IMG/VR virus record: IMGVR_UViG_3300048060_000074
DNA: 64,000 nucleotides
Origin: a virus
Direction: 5' to 3' (one strand)
Position 1 is the first letter of the stretch; each line of letters begins with the position of its first letter. Below the pieces are notes generated by a model. That model was not told the DNA's origin and did not search any database. It was given only the letters and a program-made list of their open reading frames with translations. The position numbers and the translations under genes were made by a program. Below, piece after piece: positions 37,422-43,065 of this stretch.

Positions 37422-37940
37422 CTAACCACTTCGGGATAAAGAGTTCCATGCTCTTTCCTTGTGTTTGGCCCTGGTCGCTAGGGCGATGGCTACGGCGTCA
37501 GCTTCGTTGTCGTCGGAAAGCGCAAGCCCAAATTGGCTGTTGATAAAGCGGAGCACTTTTTCTTTGTCGGCCCTTCCGTCCCCCGTGGCTGCCAACTTTG
37601 CCGTTGATGGCTGAATGCCATGCACTGGCAAGTGGTGGAAACGGGCCGCTGCCCGTATTGTGGCCCACGACTTGGCGAGGGCGATCACTGTCTTTGCGTT
37701 CATTTTTAGAAACGGCTCCTCGATGCCCACTACCGCCGCGTGTGGCTGCGCAGAGAAATTGGCGAACATCTCAGAACACATAGCAAACAGTATATCTAGA
37801 CGGTTTTCCATTGGAATTCTGCTCGTTCCAAGCCGCCACACCCCGCTCCGCCTGTAGCGGTCGCCGAAAAGCACACACCACCCGACGTTGTTCTGGGTGC
37901 CGTTGTCTATGCCGATACTGTAGAATTCCTGTCGTGGCAA
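37422..37940 (-). CDS. ruvC: RuvC Holliday junction resolvase
   Basis: IGIDNG, GIEE, PSTAKLAATGDGRADKEKV, SDDNEADAVAIAL; start likely TTG 37940 rather than 38099. Confidence 0.9.
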   Translation of the reverse strand: MPRQEFYSIGIDNGTQNNVGWCVLFGDRYRRSGVWRLGTSRIPMENRLDILFAMCSEMFANFSAQPHAAVVGIEEPFLKMNAKTVIALAKSWATIRAAARFHHLPVHGIQPSTAKLAATGDGRADKEKVLRFINSQFGLALSDDNEADAVAIALATRAKHKERAWNSLSRSG

Positions 37941-37945
37941 TGCGA

Positions 37946-38125
37946 TCAAAACGCTCTGAACCTTTCTGTGCCTGTCGCCAGGCGAATAACCGTCAACGCA
38001 ATAGAGCAGACAAAAAATGCCACGGCGGCGATAAATGCGCGTTCTGGATAGTCGTTGCCGAATACCCAGACAGCAGAGAAAAAGATTGCGGCCAGCCAAC
38101 TTATCCCTAGAAGGATGTTAAGCAT
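37946..38125 (-). CDS. small membrane protein
   Basis: AAGGAG RBS; two TM helices. Confidence 0.6.
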   Translation of the reverse strand: MLNILLGISWLAAIFFSAVWVFGNDYPERAFIAAVAFFVCSIALTVIRLATGTERFRAF

Positions 38126-38315
38126 TTTTCTCCTTCTCTCGGACGAACCACCGGGCGATTGCATCGCCCACCGTGATCCCTGTGGCTTCAGTATCGCCAT
38201 ACCGACCTGTGGTCGCATGTGCCCACAGGCGTATCGTCGCAAAATACACGAGCCACCTTGGCAAAAGCCAGGCGACCCACATCTTGAAACGATACCTTAT
38301 ACGATGCATGTACAT
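38118..38315 (-). CDS. hypothetical protein
   Basis: AAGGAG RBS; first gene of the leftward arm. Confidence 0.65.
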   Translation of the reverse strand: MYMHRIRYRFKMWVAWLLPRWLVYFATIRLWAHATTGRYGDTEATGITVGDAIARWFVREKEKNA

Positions 38316-38329
38316 GTCTCTCCTTTCAA

Positions 38330-38848
38330 TATGCCGGGCAATGCTCCCGGCGGTCGGCCTTTAAAAGGTGGTGGCATCGGGCTGGCTAGTCATCTACGAA
38401 CAGACCCCAGATGTTCCCGTTGGCGCTGCCGTCTAGCCGGCTACCACCGGCCCCGCACAAGTGCTACGGGCTACTGTCTCGTACAGCACAGCCACCACAA
38501 TGCAAGGCGCCGGCTCGCTCTATAGCACGACCGATCTTTTAAGTGGGGGACTATGACCTCCACAGCCACCCTTGCAAATATGAGTCTCGGCTTCGGTTTC
38601 CACTCTTAGTTTTTCTGTATTCGGCAGGTCGGGCTGTACACGCCCTACGGAATTTACTTTACCGCAAAGCTGCTTTGAAAGGGTCACACCGCGCCGATTA
38701 TCAGGGAATACCTGGCTTTACTACCGTGCCTCGTCCTTGGCAGAAGGGTCTAGAATTTCCACCAAGCCTGCATCGTGGTATCCAGGCTGATTGTACCCAT
38801 AACGTTCCCCTGCGGTATTTACGCATCCTCGCGGTTACCGAGACTCAC
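38330..38848 (-). ncRNA. putative large structured RNA or 5' leader (leftward)
   Basis: starts at the predicted TSS; TGAGTCTCGG 38581-38590 pairs with CCGAGACTCA 38838-38847; many internal hairpins; no RBS-supported ORF. Confidence 0.5.
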
Positions 38849-38854
38849 AGATAA

Positions 38855-38883
38855 AGTATACCACCCTTCCTGACATTTGTCAA
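38855..38883 (-). promoter_or_regulatory. leftward sigma70 promoter of the divergent pair
   Basis: TTGACA-17-TATACT. Confidence 0.85.
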
Positions 38884-38900
38884 GTACGCTTTTCAGTCGA

Positions 38901-38916
38901 TTTTATACGTATAAAA
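38901..38916. promoter_or_regulatory. 16-bp palindrome TTTTATACGTATAAAA centred between divergent promoters
   Basis: 17 bp from each -35 hexamer. Confidence 0.92.
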
Positions 38917-38933
38917 CGTGCCCAAATACCCCC

Positions 38934-38962
38934 TTGACAAACGTCCTGATCTGTGATAGACT
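38934..38962 (+). promoter_or_regulatory. rightward sigma70 promoter of the divergent pair
   Basis: TTGACA-17-TAGACT. Confidence 0.85.
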
Positions 38963-38968
38963 AAGATC

Positions 38969-39640
38969 GCATCGAGGATCTGCCGAATCTCATCTTCTCC
39001 TCCTTTATTCTGTCACGAGTCGGTATGAGCAGCCGACTAACAAAATTGCTCCCTGACAACGGGGCGGCTGGCAGCCGGCAGCCGCCCCGATTGGGTGGGG
39101 AGCACAGAGACCTCAGAGCAATAAGCATCTCGCACTCAGCCTCTTTTGTTTTTCTTGGGGCGCCAGTGCCCGTAGCGGGCGCTCACCTGCTACATGCGAG
39201 GTGCCGCTGGACGCCCAAGAAAAGCACGAGAGGCTTTATGTTTCAGTCGTTTTGGCTAAACACAATCAAATCAATGCAGCACGCCAGTTCGCTGAAACAC
39301 TAAGCCCTGCCCGAACAATGCGGCGGGGTTTTCTGCTTCGCCCTGACGCTACATACTGTACGAGCCGTAAGTCCCAGGCAGCCCCCGAGGGCGAGAGGTT
39401 GACGAGAGGCAGTAAATCCAGATTCCGCATAGCGGCCCCGCCGGGTTACACCAGGGGATGATGGACAAACACCGAAAGGTGTACGTGGTAAGTACCCGCC
39501 TGGTCACGTTTGAGTCCATTCCACGAAAGTGGCTGTGAAAGCGACCGACCGACCGACCGACGGTCATACGTCACCACAGGTCCTCCCTATTTTACGGGGG
39601 GATCTGTCTTCTCCCTCTCTCCCTCCCTCAAGTCATACTC
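38969..39640 (+). ncRNA. putative large structured RNA or 5' leader (rightward)
   Basis: CGGGGCGGCTG/CAGCCGCCCCG, AGTCGG/CCGACT, GCATCTCGCA/TGCGAGGTGC, GAAA tetraloops at 39469-39482 and 39521-39532. Confidence 0.55.
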
Positions 39641-39702
39641 ACAGGAACACAAACAGCAGAAGGCGAGAGAAGCAAGAAGGGGAAGAAGAAAGGGGAAACA
39701 GA

Positions 39703-39921
39703 ATGCCAACAAAGTTTGGAACAGCGACAGTAAGTGAACATGGAGATAACTTTCTAATCGAAGCGCCCTGGTGCGAAGAATTCATTCCAGCCATAAAGAA
39801 GTTACCAAAAGGGTCTCGCTGGTGGGACCCCATCCTTAAAGGGTGGCTGGTAAGAGACGAGGTCTATACCAAGGCACTCGTCATCGTGTCAAGATTCTTT
39901 AACATCGAGTACGAAGACTAG
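39703..39921 (+). CDS. small protein (WDP..K.W motif)
   Basis: AGGGG RBS; MPTKFG...RWWDPILKGWLV. Confidence 0.65.
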   Translation: MPTKFGTATVSEHGDNFLIEAPWCEEFIPAIKKLPKGSRWWDPILKGWLVRDEVYTKALVIVSRFFNIEYED

Positions 39922-41400: not shown

Positions 41401-43065
41401 TTGGCAAAGTCTCTCTCCAGGCTGGTCAGCGAAGAACAGCTAGAAGAACTCAAGAAGTGCAGCCAAAGTGTCATCTATTGGCTTACCAAGTATGTCTACC
41501 TAAGACATACTACTCAGGGGAAGATTCCTTGGGACAAGCCATACCCGTACCAGGTAGAGTTTCTTGAAGCTCTAGAGCGTGGTGAGGATGTTCTGTGTTG
41601 CAAGTCCCGCCGTGTTGGGGCGTCCTGGACAGCGTGCGCGTTTGTTCTATGGCGGATTATGTTCCGCCCGGATATCACCTGCCTATTGCTGTCCAGAAAA
41701 CAAAAACTTGCCGAGGGGTTGCTCGTCAGGGTAAAGTTCATCCTGAAGCACCTGCCGGAGTGGATGCGCCCGAAGGTGGTTGCCCAGAATAAGAGTGAAA
41801 TTGTCTTTCGTTTCGTCTTTCGTGGTAACGTTGGCGAGTCAAATGTCCTCTCCCTCACCACCACTGACGACAGTGGCAGAGGCGAAGACGCCGCCGTGGT
41901 GCTAATGGACGAAGCGGCGTTTATGCAGAACGCCGACGACGTTTGGTCGGCGATTGGCCCGACGGCGGCCTTTGGCGGGCAGAGAGCAGTCATCTCGACG
42001 CCAAACGGGGTCGGTGGACTTTTCCATAGATTGGTCTCCGAGTCTCGCCTTGGGGTCGACAACGGGTTCACCTACCTTGAGGCCCATTGGAAAAGGGACT
42101 GCGGCCTTTCCGATGAGTGGTACGTTAGAGCCACGCGCGGAATGGGCCTGCTCAAGAAACAGCAGGAATTCGGCCTGGTGTTCCTGTCATCTGGCAGGCC
42201 ATTCTTTGACCTGAATGCGCTGAACCGCTGCTACAAGCCGACTAGCAGGTTTCCCGAGATTGCATCGGCGATGTGCAAAACGGCAATGAACTTTGGCGGT
42301 GTTGATACGTCGGAGGGGCATACGCTAGCCGATGGCGGCCAGCCAGATTTTCATTCGATCACCATACTCAACCAGTACGGTGTTCAGATTTATCAGTACT
42401 CGAACAACAAAATCAGCCAGAGAGAGTTCTCTGGCTACACCGAGCGACTGCCAGATGGACAGGCCGTCGAGGTGGAGAGCGTTCCAAGCAAGATACACCG
42501 GGAGTATCCAGGGATGATGGCTATCGAGCGGTGGGGGAGCGGCGATATAACCTACGCCCACCACCAGGTGCCTCTTGATGGGCGGTCGAACGTCGTAGCC
42601 CGCAGGCAGACCAACTCGTCGAAAATGTCCGGTCTAAACGCGCTTCGTCGAATGATAAACGACGATGCGATAGTGATAACGGACCAATTCACTTACCATT
42701 GCTGTACGACGTTCGAGGACCAGACTTCTGGAATCGTCCAGAAGGCTGCTGCCTCGAAGGGGTCATTCGACGACCCGGTGATCACCCTAATGCTCGCCGC
42801 GCGTGAGTGGGAGCGGTGGGGTGGCTACCAGTTCGATCTTACATCTATCGGCCAAACATCAGGGGGACAAAGAGCGGTCGGGCTGCGCCAACAGTCCGAT
42901 ATGGCGCAAGGTGATTTGGCAAAACTTTTACCAGTTGGAACAATTGCGCAGGGCCCGCTTTGGCAAGAGCGGGAACCATTCGAGCCCGGGGAAGGCAATC
43001 GGAGGTATAGCGATGACATCGACCTCGTCCGCAGAGGAAAAAAGATGCGTCCGACCGGGCTGTAG
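41401..43065 (+). CDS. terL: terminase large subunit
   Basis: KSRRVGASW Walker A, VLMDEAAF Walker B, ISTPNG, nuclease GVDTSEG and SFDDPV. Confidence 0.93.
   Translation: MAKSLSRLVSEEQLEELKKCSQSVIYWLTKYVYLRHTTQGKIPWDKPYPYQVEFLEALERGEDVLCCKSRRVGASWTACAFVLWRIMFRPDITCLLLSRKQKLAEGLLVRVKFILKHLPEWMRPKVVAQNKSEIVFRFVFRGNVGESNVLSLTTTDDSGRGEDAAVVLMDEAAFMQNADDVWSAIGPTAAFGGQRAVISTPNGVGGLFHRLVSESRLGVDNGFTYLEAHWKRDCGLSDEWYVRATRGMGLLKKQQEFGLVFLSSGRPFFDLNALNRCYKPTSRFPEIASAMCKTAMNFGGVDTSEGHTLADGGQPDFHSITILNQYGVQIYQYSNNKISQREFSGYTERLPDGQAVEVESVPSKIHREYPGMMAIERWGSGDITYAHHQVPLDGRSNVVARRQTNSSKMSGLNALRRMINDDAIVITDQFTYHCCTTFEDQTSGIVQKAAASKGSFDDPVITLMLAAREWERWGGYQFDLTSIGQTSGGQRAVGLRQQSDMAQGDLAKLLPVGTIAQGPLWQEREPFEPGEGNRRYSDDIDLVRRGKKMRPTGL

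What the first reader, a model, noticed from the sequence alone, without database searches (positions are those of the whole stretch)
38969..39640. ~670-nt highly structured rightward non-coding RNA
Seen: no RBS-supported ORF between the promoter and ATG 39703, but nested stems are present. These are AGTCGG/CCGACT (39018/39033), GCTCCC/GGGAGC enclosing an 11-bp CGGGGCGGCTG/CAGCCGCCCCG helix, long-range GCATCTCGCA/TGCGAGGTGC (39125/39195), ACACC-GAAA-GGTGT and CCAC-GAAA-GTGG tetraloops, and (CGAC)5 at 39542-39561. Known: phages carry large ncRNAs such as GOLLD and ROOL. I cannot assign this one to a known class, so it may be new.
Basis: partly seen in the sequence, partly recalled or inferred. 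Interest (0 to 1): 0.78.

Follow-up and report, generated by a model that had tools for sequence, protein, structure and literature searches.

The report
Phage long RNA with EGFOA core
The flagged stretch is a real, highly folded non-coding RNA of an uncultured sediment phage, but its conserved part is a divergent copy of EGFOA, a known phage-borne RNA family of unknown function, so it is not a new class.

Summary
A near-consensus promoter (38934-38962) starts a rightward, ORF-free stretch of about 730 nt that folds far better than shuffles (z -5.95). All the listed stems and the (CGAC)5 repeat are present.

The reading "unknown, perhaps new class" does not hold. Positions 39412-39521 match Rfam EGFOA (RF02955) over the full model, but below threshold (32.0 bits against 37.7). 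Membership is supported by:
- The family's pseudoknot and closing helix are kept through fully compensatory changes.
- A model built without the window from EGFOA loci elsewhere hits 39485-39627 (50.7 bits, E 5e-13).

EGFOA loci share a 3' module that the 108-nt Rfam model does not cover:
- a small hairpin
- a C/G-rich hairpin
- a C-rich, CCUC-bearing tail

The 5' 320 nt are lineage-specific hairpins. A TerL-related phage has the same layout: promoter, about 770 nt of gene-free structured RNA, EGFOA variant, tail, then a new promoter.

The function of EGFOA is unknown. My best reading is an independent structured RNA that here also forms the leader of the packaging operon. This scan has found EGFOA-like RNAs before on other DNA. 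Interest is moderate to low.

The parts
38934..38962 (+). Rightward sigma-70-type promoter (TTGACA-17-TAGACT, TG before the -10). The predicted start is near 38969.
   Evidence: 10 of 12 matches. It is paired back to back with a leftward 11-of-12 promoter at 38883-38855. A 16-bp perfect palindrome (38901-38916, read) lies between the two -35 boxes.
38989..39012 (+). 5' pyrimidine-rich tract (CU1).
   Evidence: In the minimum-energy fold it pairs with the purine tract at 39668-39696, just before the start codon. This is a prediction only.
39018..39299 (+). Lineage-specific 5' hairpin domains: 39018-39038, 39047-39104 (with the 11-bp GC helix), 39138-39235 (about 100 nt long) and 39239-39299.
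   Evidence: z -6.48 for 38969-39300. No sequence similarity to any fetched locus. The relative L052 has comparably long hairpins in the same part of its RNA.
39303..39340 (+). 9-bp GC-rich hairpin followed by UUUUCUGCUU. It resembles an intrinsic terminator, so it may be a partial stop or an attenuator.
   Evidence: stem 39303-39311/39322-39330. The hairpin is kept with different letters in L052 (alignment), but without the U run there. Its role as a terminator is inferred.
39342..39378 (+). Conserved hairpin upstream of EGFOA (closing stem CCUG/CAGG).
   Evidence: Local alignment to L051 99-173 (z 12.4) and to L052 (z 6.1). The closing stem reads CCAA/UUGG in L051 (read by eye, three sequences only).
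39387..39412 (+). Purine-rich tract (AG1). It is predicted to pair with the CU tail and so close the whole EGFOA module.
   Evidence: 20 pairs with 39604-39625. One search gives z -2.1 in the window, but no comparable helix in most other family members, so this helix is window-specific and unproven.
39412..39521 (+). EGFOA core, a divergent member of Rfam RF02955. Elements: CCAGA at 39418-39422; pseudoknot 5' strand 39440-39446; closing helix 39460-39466/39514-39520; hairpin 39469-39482; core hairpin 39483-39509, whose loop strand 39494-39499 forms the pseudoknot.
   Evidence: 32.0 bits, E 7e-4, model positions 1-108 of 108. (pseudoknot ACCCGC with GC(C)GGGU). (closing helix at the canonical offset). 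(a 174-nt cold-seep contig matches 39399-39567 with 1 substitution and 3 inserted letters).
39521..39532 (+). Small GNRA-loop hairpin (CCAC-GAAA-GUGG) directly after the EGFOA closing helix.
   Evidence: The same place holds GCC-GAAA-GGC (L063), GGCC-GAAA-GGCU (L072) and GGCC-GAGA-GGCU (L123).
39533..39579 (+). Domain carrying the CGACCGA(C) box, here expanded to (CGAC)5 at 39542-39561.
   Evidence: The box recurs downstream of EGFOA in viral, metagenomic and bacterial loci. L052 and L060 also carry several copies. The covariance-model match that excludes the core covers 39539-39601 (15.9 bits, E 1e-5).
39580..39603 (+). Hairpin K, with a C/U-rich 5' arm and a G-rich 3' arm.
   Evidence: It is present at the same relative place in all members examined, with differing paired letters. 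flags it as terminator-like.
39604..39632 (+). C-rich, G-poor tail carrying CCUC/CCUCC motifs.
   Evidence: CCUC occurs within 35 nt after hairpin K in 24 of 32 members (background 12%). C exceeds G in 29 of 32 members (611 C against 327 G in total). The tail is nearly identical in L052 and L034.
39655..39702 (+). Purine-rich tract holding the ribosome-binding site of the first rightward gene. It is complementary to both CU tracts.
   Evidence: No promoter-like site lies between the tail and the ATG.
39703..39921 (+). First rightward gene (72 aa, no known family). It is followed by small ORFs, the large terminase (41401-43065) and a Mu-type portal.

Best explanation
The interval is the gene for a long structured non-coding RNA of about 640-730 nt. 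Host RNA polymerase transcribes it rightward from the near-consensus promoter at 38934-38962, at the divergent switch between the leftward replication and recombination genes and the rightward packaging genes.

Its conserved part (about 39290-39632) is a divergent member of the EGFOA family, with these elements:
- a pseudoknotted multi-helix core (39412-39521)
- a small GNRA-loop hairpin
- a CGACCGAC-box domain
- hairpin K
- a C-rich, CCUC-bearing tail

The last four form a 3' module that is found across the family but is not in the Rfam model. The first ~320 nt (38969-39290) are lineage-specific hairpins.

Shown: the promoter, the absence of coding potential, the fold signal, homology to EGFOA loci and compensatory base changes.

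Inferred: the EGFOA module acts as an independent folded RNA particle. The family is filed as an sRNA, forms oligomers in vitro, and in several loci a new promoter follows it. In this phage no promoter and no strong terminator separates the module from ATG 39703. The same transcript therefore probably also serves as the leader of the packaging operon. Its two CU-rich tracts would be able to cover the purine-rich ribosome-binding region, and a terminator-like hairpin at 39303-39340 could limit read-through.
For: Promoter and lack of other starts.

Fold.

No conserved ORF.

EGFOA match over the full model.

Pseudoknot: the window pairs ACCCGC with GC(C)GGGU, with the family's usual one-base bulge. 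A strict Watson-Crick pseudoknot was found in 31 of 113 pattern hits, against 2.9 (maximum 7) when partners were permuted. At least 8 other compensatory variants exist.

Closing helix: present at the canonical offset in 39 of 49 members, against 20.2 (maximum 29) when permuted. The window has its own pair.

Model R1, built from 17 loci without the window, gives 50.7 bits and E 5e-13 at 39485-39627 in the whole 64-kb window. Without the core it gives 15.9 bits and E 1e-5.

The 3' module is shared with members above the Rfam threshold (L011, L029, L048, L016, L025). Tail statistics.

Relative L052 (large terminase 47% identical) has this layout:
- an 11-of-12 promoter
- about 770 nt of gene-free RNA (z -7.3)
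- an EGFOA variant with its own compensated pseudoknot
- CGACCGA repeats
- hairpin K
- a CUCCCUCCCUC tail
- a 12-of-12 promoter 35 nt later
.

A cold-seep contig from another study keeps 39399-39567 almost unchanged.

In vitro oligomers of EGFOA: bioRxiv 10.64898/2026.07.01.735769.
Against: The Rfam score is below the gathering threshold (32.0 against 37.7).

The first hairpin of the Rfam model (the one that follows the pseudoknot 5' strand) is not formed in the window; marks non-standard pairs there.

The first 15 fixed bases of the core were used to collect the comparison loci. Part of the R1 score is therefore shared by construction.

No transcript data exist, so the RNA ends and any processing are unknown.

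The closing helix between 39387-39412 and the tail is not seen in most family members.

Downstream genes differ from locus to locus. A promoter separates the module from the next gene in about 8 of 40 loci. A cis role therefore cannot be the family's general function.

No function has been shown for any EGFOA RNA.
Confidence: 0.7

Rival explanations
1. It is purely a cis-acting 5' leader (attenuator or translational switch) of the packaging operon. The CU tracts at 38989-39012 and 39604-39632 compete with the purine tracts at 39387-39412 and 39655-39702, so that the ribosome-binding site of the 72-aa gene is hidden or exposed. The hairpin with a U run at 39303-39340 stops part of the transcripts. 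Under this reading the EGFOA domain is only a sensor or scaffold within the leader.
For: - No promoter or strong terminator lies between the module and ATG 39703.
- The minimum-energy fold pairs the ribosome-binding region with CU1, and the tail with AG1.
- Paenibacillus-type members (L029, L125, L090) and L057 also have a G- or purine-rich tract just before the next ATG that is complementary to their tail.
- In most loci, when the element is placed on the plus strand, the next candidate ORF downstream is also on the plus strand, usually 50-550 nt after the module. Only plus-strand ORFs were scanned systematically.
Against: - In L052, L016, L055, L056, L106, L122 and L057 a promoter-like site (12 of 12 matches in L052 and L016) lies between the module and the next gene.
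- Downstream genes have unrelated functions.
- Copies also sit on non-phage islands.
- Any CU-rich tract pairs with any ribosome-binding site, so the complementarity is weak evidence.
Confidence: 0.2
2. The conserved features act at the DNA level. The gene-free stretch between the divergent operons would be an origin of replication or a packaging (pac/cos) site. The (CGAC)5 repeat would serve as protein-binding iterons and the inverted repeats as binding or melting sites.
For: - The stretch lies between the replication and recombination genes and the terminase genes.
- The CGACCGA box is conserved as sequence rather than by covariation, and is repeated in the window, L052 and L060.
- The minus strand also folds better than shuffles (z -3.63).
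Against: - Compensatory changes in the pseudoknot, the closing helix and hairpin K, some through G-U pairs, point to RNA on the plus strand.
- The models match the plus strand only.
- A strong promoter reads into the stretch.
- The plus strand folds much better than the minus strand.
Confidence: 0.05
3. It is a new RNA class whose resemblance to EGFOA is chance or convergence.
For: The Rfam score is below threshold and one model hairpin is missing. The 5' 320 nt match nothing.
Against: - The match covers the whole model.
- The pseudoknot and closing helix sit at the canonical offsets, with the canonical bulge.
- Four further elements downstream occur in the same order.
- L052, L034 and L060 are intermediate relatives.
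Confidence: 0.03
4. The stretch hides one or more small protein-coding genes, for example 39025-39303 or 39201-39461.
For: ORFs of 86-92 codons exist on the plus strand.
Against: - Their translations are low-complexity and have no relative in related loci.
- ATG 39025 lies in a hairpin loop, with no clear ribosome-binding site.
- Related loci conserve RNA pairing, not reading frames.
Confidence: 0.02

Closest known systems
EGFOA RNA (Rfam RF02955; Weinberg et al. 2017, PMC5737381; cryo-EM of two members in bioRxiv 10.64898/2026.07.01.735769)
   Same: - The match runs over the full model.
- The CCAGA motif and the GGUAA...CCUGG core hairpin are present.
- The pseudoknot between the 5' strand and the core loop has the usual one-base bulge.
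- The closing helix and the hairpin before the core hairpin are present.
- It lies in an unusually long gene-free stretch of a phage.
- It shares the 3' module (CGACCGA box, hairpin K, CCUC tail) with members above threshold.
   Different: - It scores 32.0 bits, below the 37.7 threshold.
- The model's first hairpin (after the pseudoknot 5' strand) is absent. A small hairpin lies before the pseudoknot strand instead.
- The pseudoknot letters are unique to the window.
- The CGAC box is expanded to five tandem copies.
- The element sits about 440 nt inside a transcript of about 700 nt that runs into the packaging operon.
GOLLD and ROOL
   Same: They are large, highly structured RNAs of unknown function carried by phages. 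Multimer formation in vitro is reported for these classes and for EGFOA (papers listed).
   Different: There is no match to either family in Rfam, even at permissive E-values. The size and helix layout are different.
Long regulatory mRNA leaders that hide the ribosome-binding site or contain attenuators (general class; a functional comparison only)
   Same: Promoter-proximal position, pyrimidine tracts complementary to the ribosome-binding region, and an internal terminator-like hairpin.
   Different: No ligand, protein or alternative fold has been shown. The conserved module also occurs as a separate unit followed by its own downstream promoter.

Membership tests
EGFOA (RF02955) | Score at or above Rfam's gathering threshold (37.7 bits) | tested here: not met
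   32.0 bits, E 7e-4 in an 821-nt search. Nothing is listed at the gathering threshold.
EGFOA (RF02955) | Full-length match with the conserved core letters (CCAG, GGUAA...CCUGG, the GUUnGA junction) | tested here: met
   Model positions 1-108 of 108 are aligned at 39412-39521. The core pattern is shared with members above threshold.
EGFOA (RF02955) | Pseudoknot between a 5' strand and the loop of the core hairpin, with a one-base bulge | tested here: met
   Window: loop ACCCGC (39494-39499) pairs with GC(C)GGGU (39440-39446), all Watson-Crick. Family-wide: 31 of 113 hits against 2.9 expected from permuted partners. The pseudoknot layout was derived here from the loci, not taken from the Rfam file.
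EGFOA (RF02955) | Closing helix that brackets the two inner hairpins | tested here: met
   GAUGGAC (39460-39466) pairs with GUCCAUU (39514-39520). It is at the canonical offset. Family-wide: 39 of 49 against 20.2 when permuted.
EGFOA (RF02955) | First hairpin of the model, between the pseudoknot strand and the conserved AGG | tested here: not met
   The cmscan alignment marks non-standard pairs there. There is no room for a hairpin between 39447 and the AGG. Other subgroups also lack one of the inner hairpins (L037, L056, L062).
EGFOA (RF02955) | Location in a long gene-free stretch of a phage or mobile element | tested here: met
   About 1.6 kb without a credible gene lies between 38100 and 39703 in a phage. 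The description of the family was read.
EGFOA (RF02955) | Shared 3' module (CGACCGA box, hairpin K, CCUC tail). This is not part of the Rfam definition and was observed here. | tested here: met
EGFOA (RF02955) | Homo-oligomer formation | not testable with these tools
   Reported for two members by cryo-EM. No RNA assembly prediction is available here.
GOLLD / ROOL | Match to the Rfam covariance model | tested here: not met
   No match at the gathering threshold or at E up to 10.

The most novel reading that the evidence does not exclude
The 108-nt EGFOA motif is only the core of a 400-800-nt RNA carried by phages and mobile elements. Its 3' module is found across the family: a CGACCGAC box, hairpin K, and a C-rich tail bearing CCUCC. 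The hairpin followed by a short spacer and CCUCC is laid out like helix 45 and the anti-Shine-Dalgarno end of 16S rRNA. On this reading the module works as a mimic that binds Shine-Dalgarno sequences. It would gate translation of the adjoining operon in cis, or soak up host mRNAs or factors that bind the 16S 3' end in trans.
Probability: 0.1. Interest if true: 0.75.

Novelty: new member of a known kind. Interest (0 to 1): 0.36.

Why it matters
EGFOA is an orphan RNA. It is conserved across phages and mobile islands of several phyla and has recently been shown to form oligomers in vitro, yet it has no known function.

This window adds three things:
- A divergent member that a threshold scan misses.
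- Evidence that the family extends well beyond the Rfam model. The extension includes a conserved CGACCGA box, a covarying hairpin and a CCUC-bearing, C-rich tail.
- A defined setting. The RNA is driven by a strong host-type promoter at the early/late divergent switch and runs directly into the packaging operon.

These give concrete handles for experiments: the boundaries of the RNA, the motifs to mutate, and a reporter gene. The finding does not reveal a new class, and the scan has met EGFOA-like RNAs before on other DNA.

Tried and rejected
**Searches that found nothing**
- The Rfam scan at the gathering threshold found nothing in the window.
- A BLAST search of 38800-39760 against the phage records found nothing.
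- Searches for relatives of the 72-aa and 153-aa downstream proteins in viral contigs found none.
- A scan of viral contigs for the motif conserved at 39349-39376 found nothing.
- The scan's own index holds no look-alike of 39399-39640.
- A literature search for related descriptions found nothing.
- The supplement of Weinberg et al. 2017, which describes EGFOA, is not held.

**Related phages**
- No whole genome is held for this window.
- The first terminase relatives in viral contigs were too distant to use.
- Terminase relatives L050 and L054 show no module.
- L051 and L053 have only partial or degenerate versions.

**Closing-helix test**
- I tested whether the CU tail pairs with an upstream purine tract in all members. 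The first two scripts timed out.
- A duplex search on long stretches was uninformative.
- The focused test supported the helix only in the window (z -2.1), not in the family. It is therefore reported as a window-specific prediction.

**Hairpin K as a terminator**
- Its tail is U-rich in L052 and partly so in the window, but not in most members.

**Gene context**
- Genes next to the genomic copies in Paenibacillus, Metabacillus and related genera gave no common function.

**Expression**
- No RNA holder is listed for the window or for the Paenibacillus copy.
- The runs that could be laid on the window are DNA contigs only.

Full report
**Setting**

The window is a phage, and no host genome is held for it. 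DNA runs that contain it come from sediment metagenomes.

Genes to the left of the finding lie on the minus strand. They include a RuvC-like resolvase (37422-38099) and an FtsK-like ATPase. Genes to the right lie on the plus strand. They are a 72-aa ORF starting at ATG 39703, small ORFs, a T4-type large terminase (41401-43065) and a Mu-type portal.

Two back-to-back promoters sit at 38855-38962, around a 16-bp palindrome (38901-38916, read):
- TTGACA-17-TATACT, reading leftward
- TTGACA-17-TAGACT, reading rightward

Both have a TG before the -10. No further promoter-like site occurs before 39930. The rightward transcript should therefore start near 38969 and run about 730 nt before the first start codon.

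**Checking the observation**

Folding results:

| Stretch | Result |
|---|---|
| 38969-39702, plus strand | -296.8 kcal/mol, z -5.95, none of 20 shuffles as good |
| Same stretch, minus strand | z -3.63 |
| 38969-39300 | z -6.48 |
| 39290-39640 | z -1.92 |

The weak value for 39290-39640 is expected if that part depends on a pseudoknot, which the program cannot fold.

The ORFs inside the stretch translate to low-complexity strings. None has a relative in any related locus.

**Identity of the 3' third**

At its gathering thresholds Rfam reports nothing in the window. In E-value mode, 39412-39521 matches EGFOA (RF02955) over model positions 1-108 of 108, with 32.0 bits against a threshold of 37.7 and E 7e-4.

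EGFOA was described by Weinberg et al. 2017 (PMC5737381). [quoted passage not shown]

I collected comparison loci with the core pattern GTGGTAA-N7-CCTGG-N-CAC:
- 45 stretches in viral contigs. Five of the 15 checked reach the Rfam threshold.
- 10 metagenome contigs, when a downstream CGACCGA was also required.
- 65 stretches in bacterial genomes and MAGs, with one more base fixed. These include Paenibacillus, several Bacillaceae, Selenomonas and Gaiellales.

**Tests of membership**

The family's core loop pairs with a strand 35-80 nt upstream, with one bulged base. I tested this on all pattern hits, using the loop's own reverse complement.
- A strict Watson-Crick partner was present in 31 of 113 hits. 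With loops swapped between loci, the mean was 2.9 and the maximum 7.
- At least eight different compensatory pairs occur, for example CUACAC with GU(C)GUAG and CUGCGC with GC(C)GCAG.
- The window has its own pair, ACCCGC (39494-39499) with GC(C)GGGU (39440-39446), and even the same bulged C.

The closing helix was tested in the same way. It was present in 39 of 49 members, against 20.2 (maximum 29) with swapped partners. The window's pair, AUGGAC with GUCCAU, sits at the canonical offsets.

The first hairpin of the Rfam model is not formed in the window, which explains the low score. Other subgroups also lack one inner hairpin.

A 174-nt contig from a cold-seep metagenome of another study matches 39399-39567 with one substitution and three inserted letters. 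I therefore file the element as a divergent EGFOA member.

**A 3' module across the family**

The same series of elements follows the Rfam model's end in viral, metagenomic and bacterial loci:
1. In the window-like subgroup, a small hairpin that often has a GNRA loop. The window has CCAC-GAAA-GUGG, L063 has GCC-GAAA-GGC and L072 has GGCC-GAAA-GGCU.
2. A domain carrying a conserved CGACCGA(C) box. It is multi-copy in the window, L052 and L060.
3. Hairpin K, with a C/U-rich 5' arm and a G-rich 3' arm. Its paired letters differ from locus to locus.
4. A C-rich, G-poor tail.

CCUC occurs within 35 nt after hairpin K in 24 of 32 members, against a background of 12%. C outnumbers G in 29 of 32 members, 611 to 327 in total.

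A covariance model built from 17 such loci without the window (R1) finds one strong match in the 64-kb window, at 39485-39627 (50.7 bits, E 5e-13). The first 23 positions overlap the pattern that was used to collect the loci, so I repeated the search without them. Positions 39539-39601 still scored 15.9 bits (E 1e-5).

**Relatives of this phage**

Large-terminase relatives at 40-56% identity exist on metagenome contigs.

L052 (47% identical) has the same architecture:
- an 11-of-12 promoter
- about 770 nt of gene-free RNA that folds at z -7.3
- an EGFOA variant whose core stem and pseudoknot carry further compensatory letters (ACCGAC with GU(C)CGGU)
- CGACCGA repeats
- hairpin K
- a CUCCCUCCCUC tail
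- a perfect TTGACA-17-TATAAT promoter 35 nt later

Local alignment shows that the window's 39290-39405, just upstream of the Rfam model, is also conserved in L052 (z 6.1) and L051 (z 12.4). Stem letters are exchanged in two hairpins, but only three sequences are available.

The first ~320 nt have no detectable relative. L052 has comparably long hairpins in that part of its RNA.

**How it may work**

No function is known for any EGFOA RNA, so what follows is inference.

Evidence for an independent RNA:
- Rfam files the family as an sRNA.
- A promoter-like site lies between the module and the next gene in about 8 of 40 loci, including L052 and L016 at 12 of 12 matches.
- Downstream genes are unrelated: an HNH-helicase, RNase H, a GIY-YIG-like protein, and proteins of unknown family.
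- Copies also lie on recombinase islands.
- Two members form oligomers in vitro.

Evidence for an added cis role in this phage:
- No promoter and no strong terminator separates the tail from ATG 39703.
- The purine-rich ribosome-binding region (39655-39702) is complementary to both CU tracts. In the minimum-energy fold it pairs with 38989-39012, and the tail pairs with 39387-39412.
- A hairpin with a U run at 39303-39340 looks like an intrinsic terminator.

The tail-closing helix is not general in the family. Any CU tract can pair with any ribosome-binding site. I therefore give the purely cis reading about 0.2.

A DNA-level role as an origin or packaging site is unlikely, given the strand-specific compensatory changes. 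The C-rich, G-poor tail would also suit a Rho loading site. This was not tested.

**Novelty and verdict**

It is not a new class. It is a sub-threshold, divergent member of EGFOA embedded in a transcript of about 700 nt.

New relative to the Rfam entry are the 3' module found across the family and the evidence that the transcribed unit is several hundred nucleotides long.

This scan has already reported EGFOA-like RNAs on other DNA. One of those notes places such an RNA in the same early/late gap.

Noticed in passing
38100-38855 (minus strand): The leftward promoter also reads into a long stretch (about 520-750 nt) with no convincing gene before the RuvC operon. Both arms of the divergent switch therefore begin with long leaders. 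Rfam finds nothing there at the gathering threshold.
   Followed up: no
38901-38916 and about 39929: A perfect 16-bp palindrome, TTTTATACGTATAAAA, lies exactly between the two -35 boxes. A similar word lies just after the 72-aa gene. It is probably the operator of a phage regulator that controls the RNA's promoter.
   Followed up: partly
contig of protein P0020 (no DNA available): A large-terminase relative (41% identity) carries a Ro60/TROVE gene next to a 1.6-kb gene-free gap upstream of its packaging genes. Ro60 binds Y RNAs, so the gap may hold a Y-RNA-like gene.
   Followed up: no
L029, L125, L090 (Paenibacillus-type loci), about 150-190 nt after the EGFOA core: The ATG that follows the module is preceded by three or four G runs (such as GCAGGGGCGGGGGCGGGGAG) and by GGAAGAGAG, which is a perfect complement of the start of the CU tail. 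This could be tail-to-ribosome-binding-site pairing or a G-quadruplex.
   Followed up: partly
L052:533-766 (minus strand): A 77-aa gene called in the public record lies entirely inside the structured RNA, opposite the EGFOA-containing transcript. It is probably a false call.
   Followed up: no
L113 (contig binned as Nanoarchaeia) and other MAG contigs: A canonical EGFOA with an intact pseudoknot sits on a 14-kb contig assigned to an archaeal MAG. This is more likely a mis-binned phage contig than an archaeal copy.
   Followed up: no
39529-39921: The frame of the 72-aa gene stays open upstream to GTG 39529, across (CGAC)5 and the CU tail. The extension would read as a low-complexity peptide and has no ribosome-binding site, so it is probably not translated.
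   Followed up: partly
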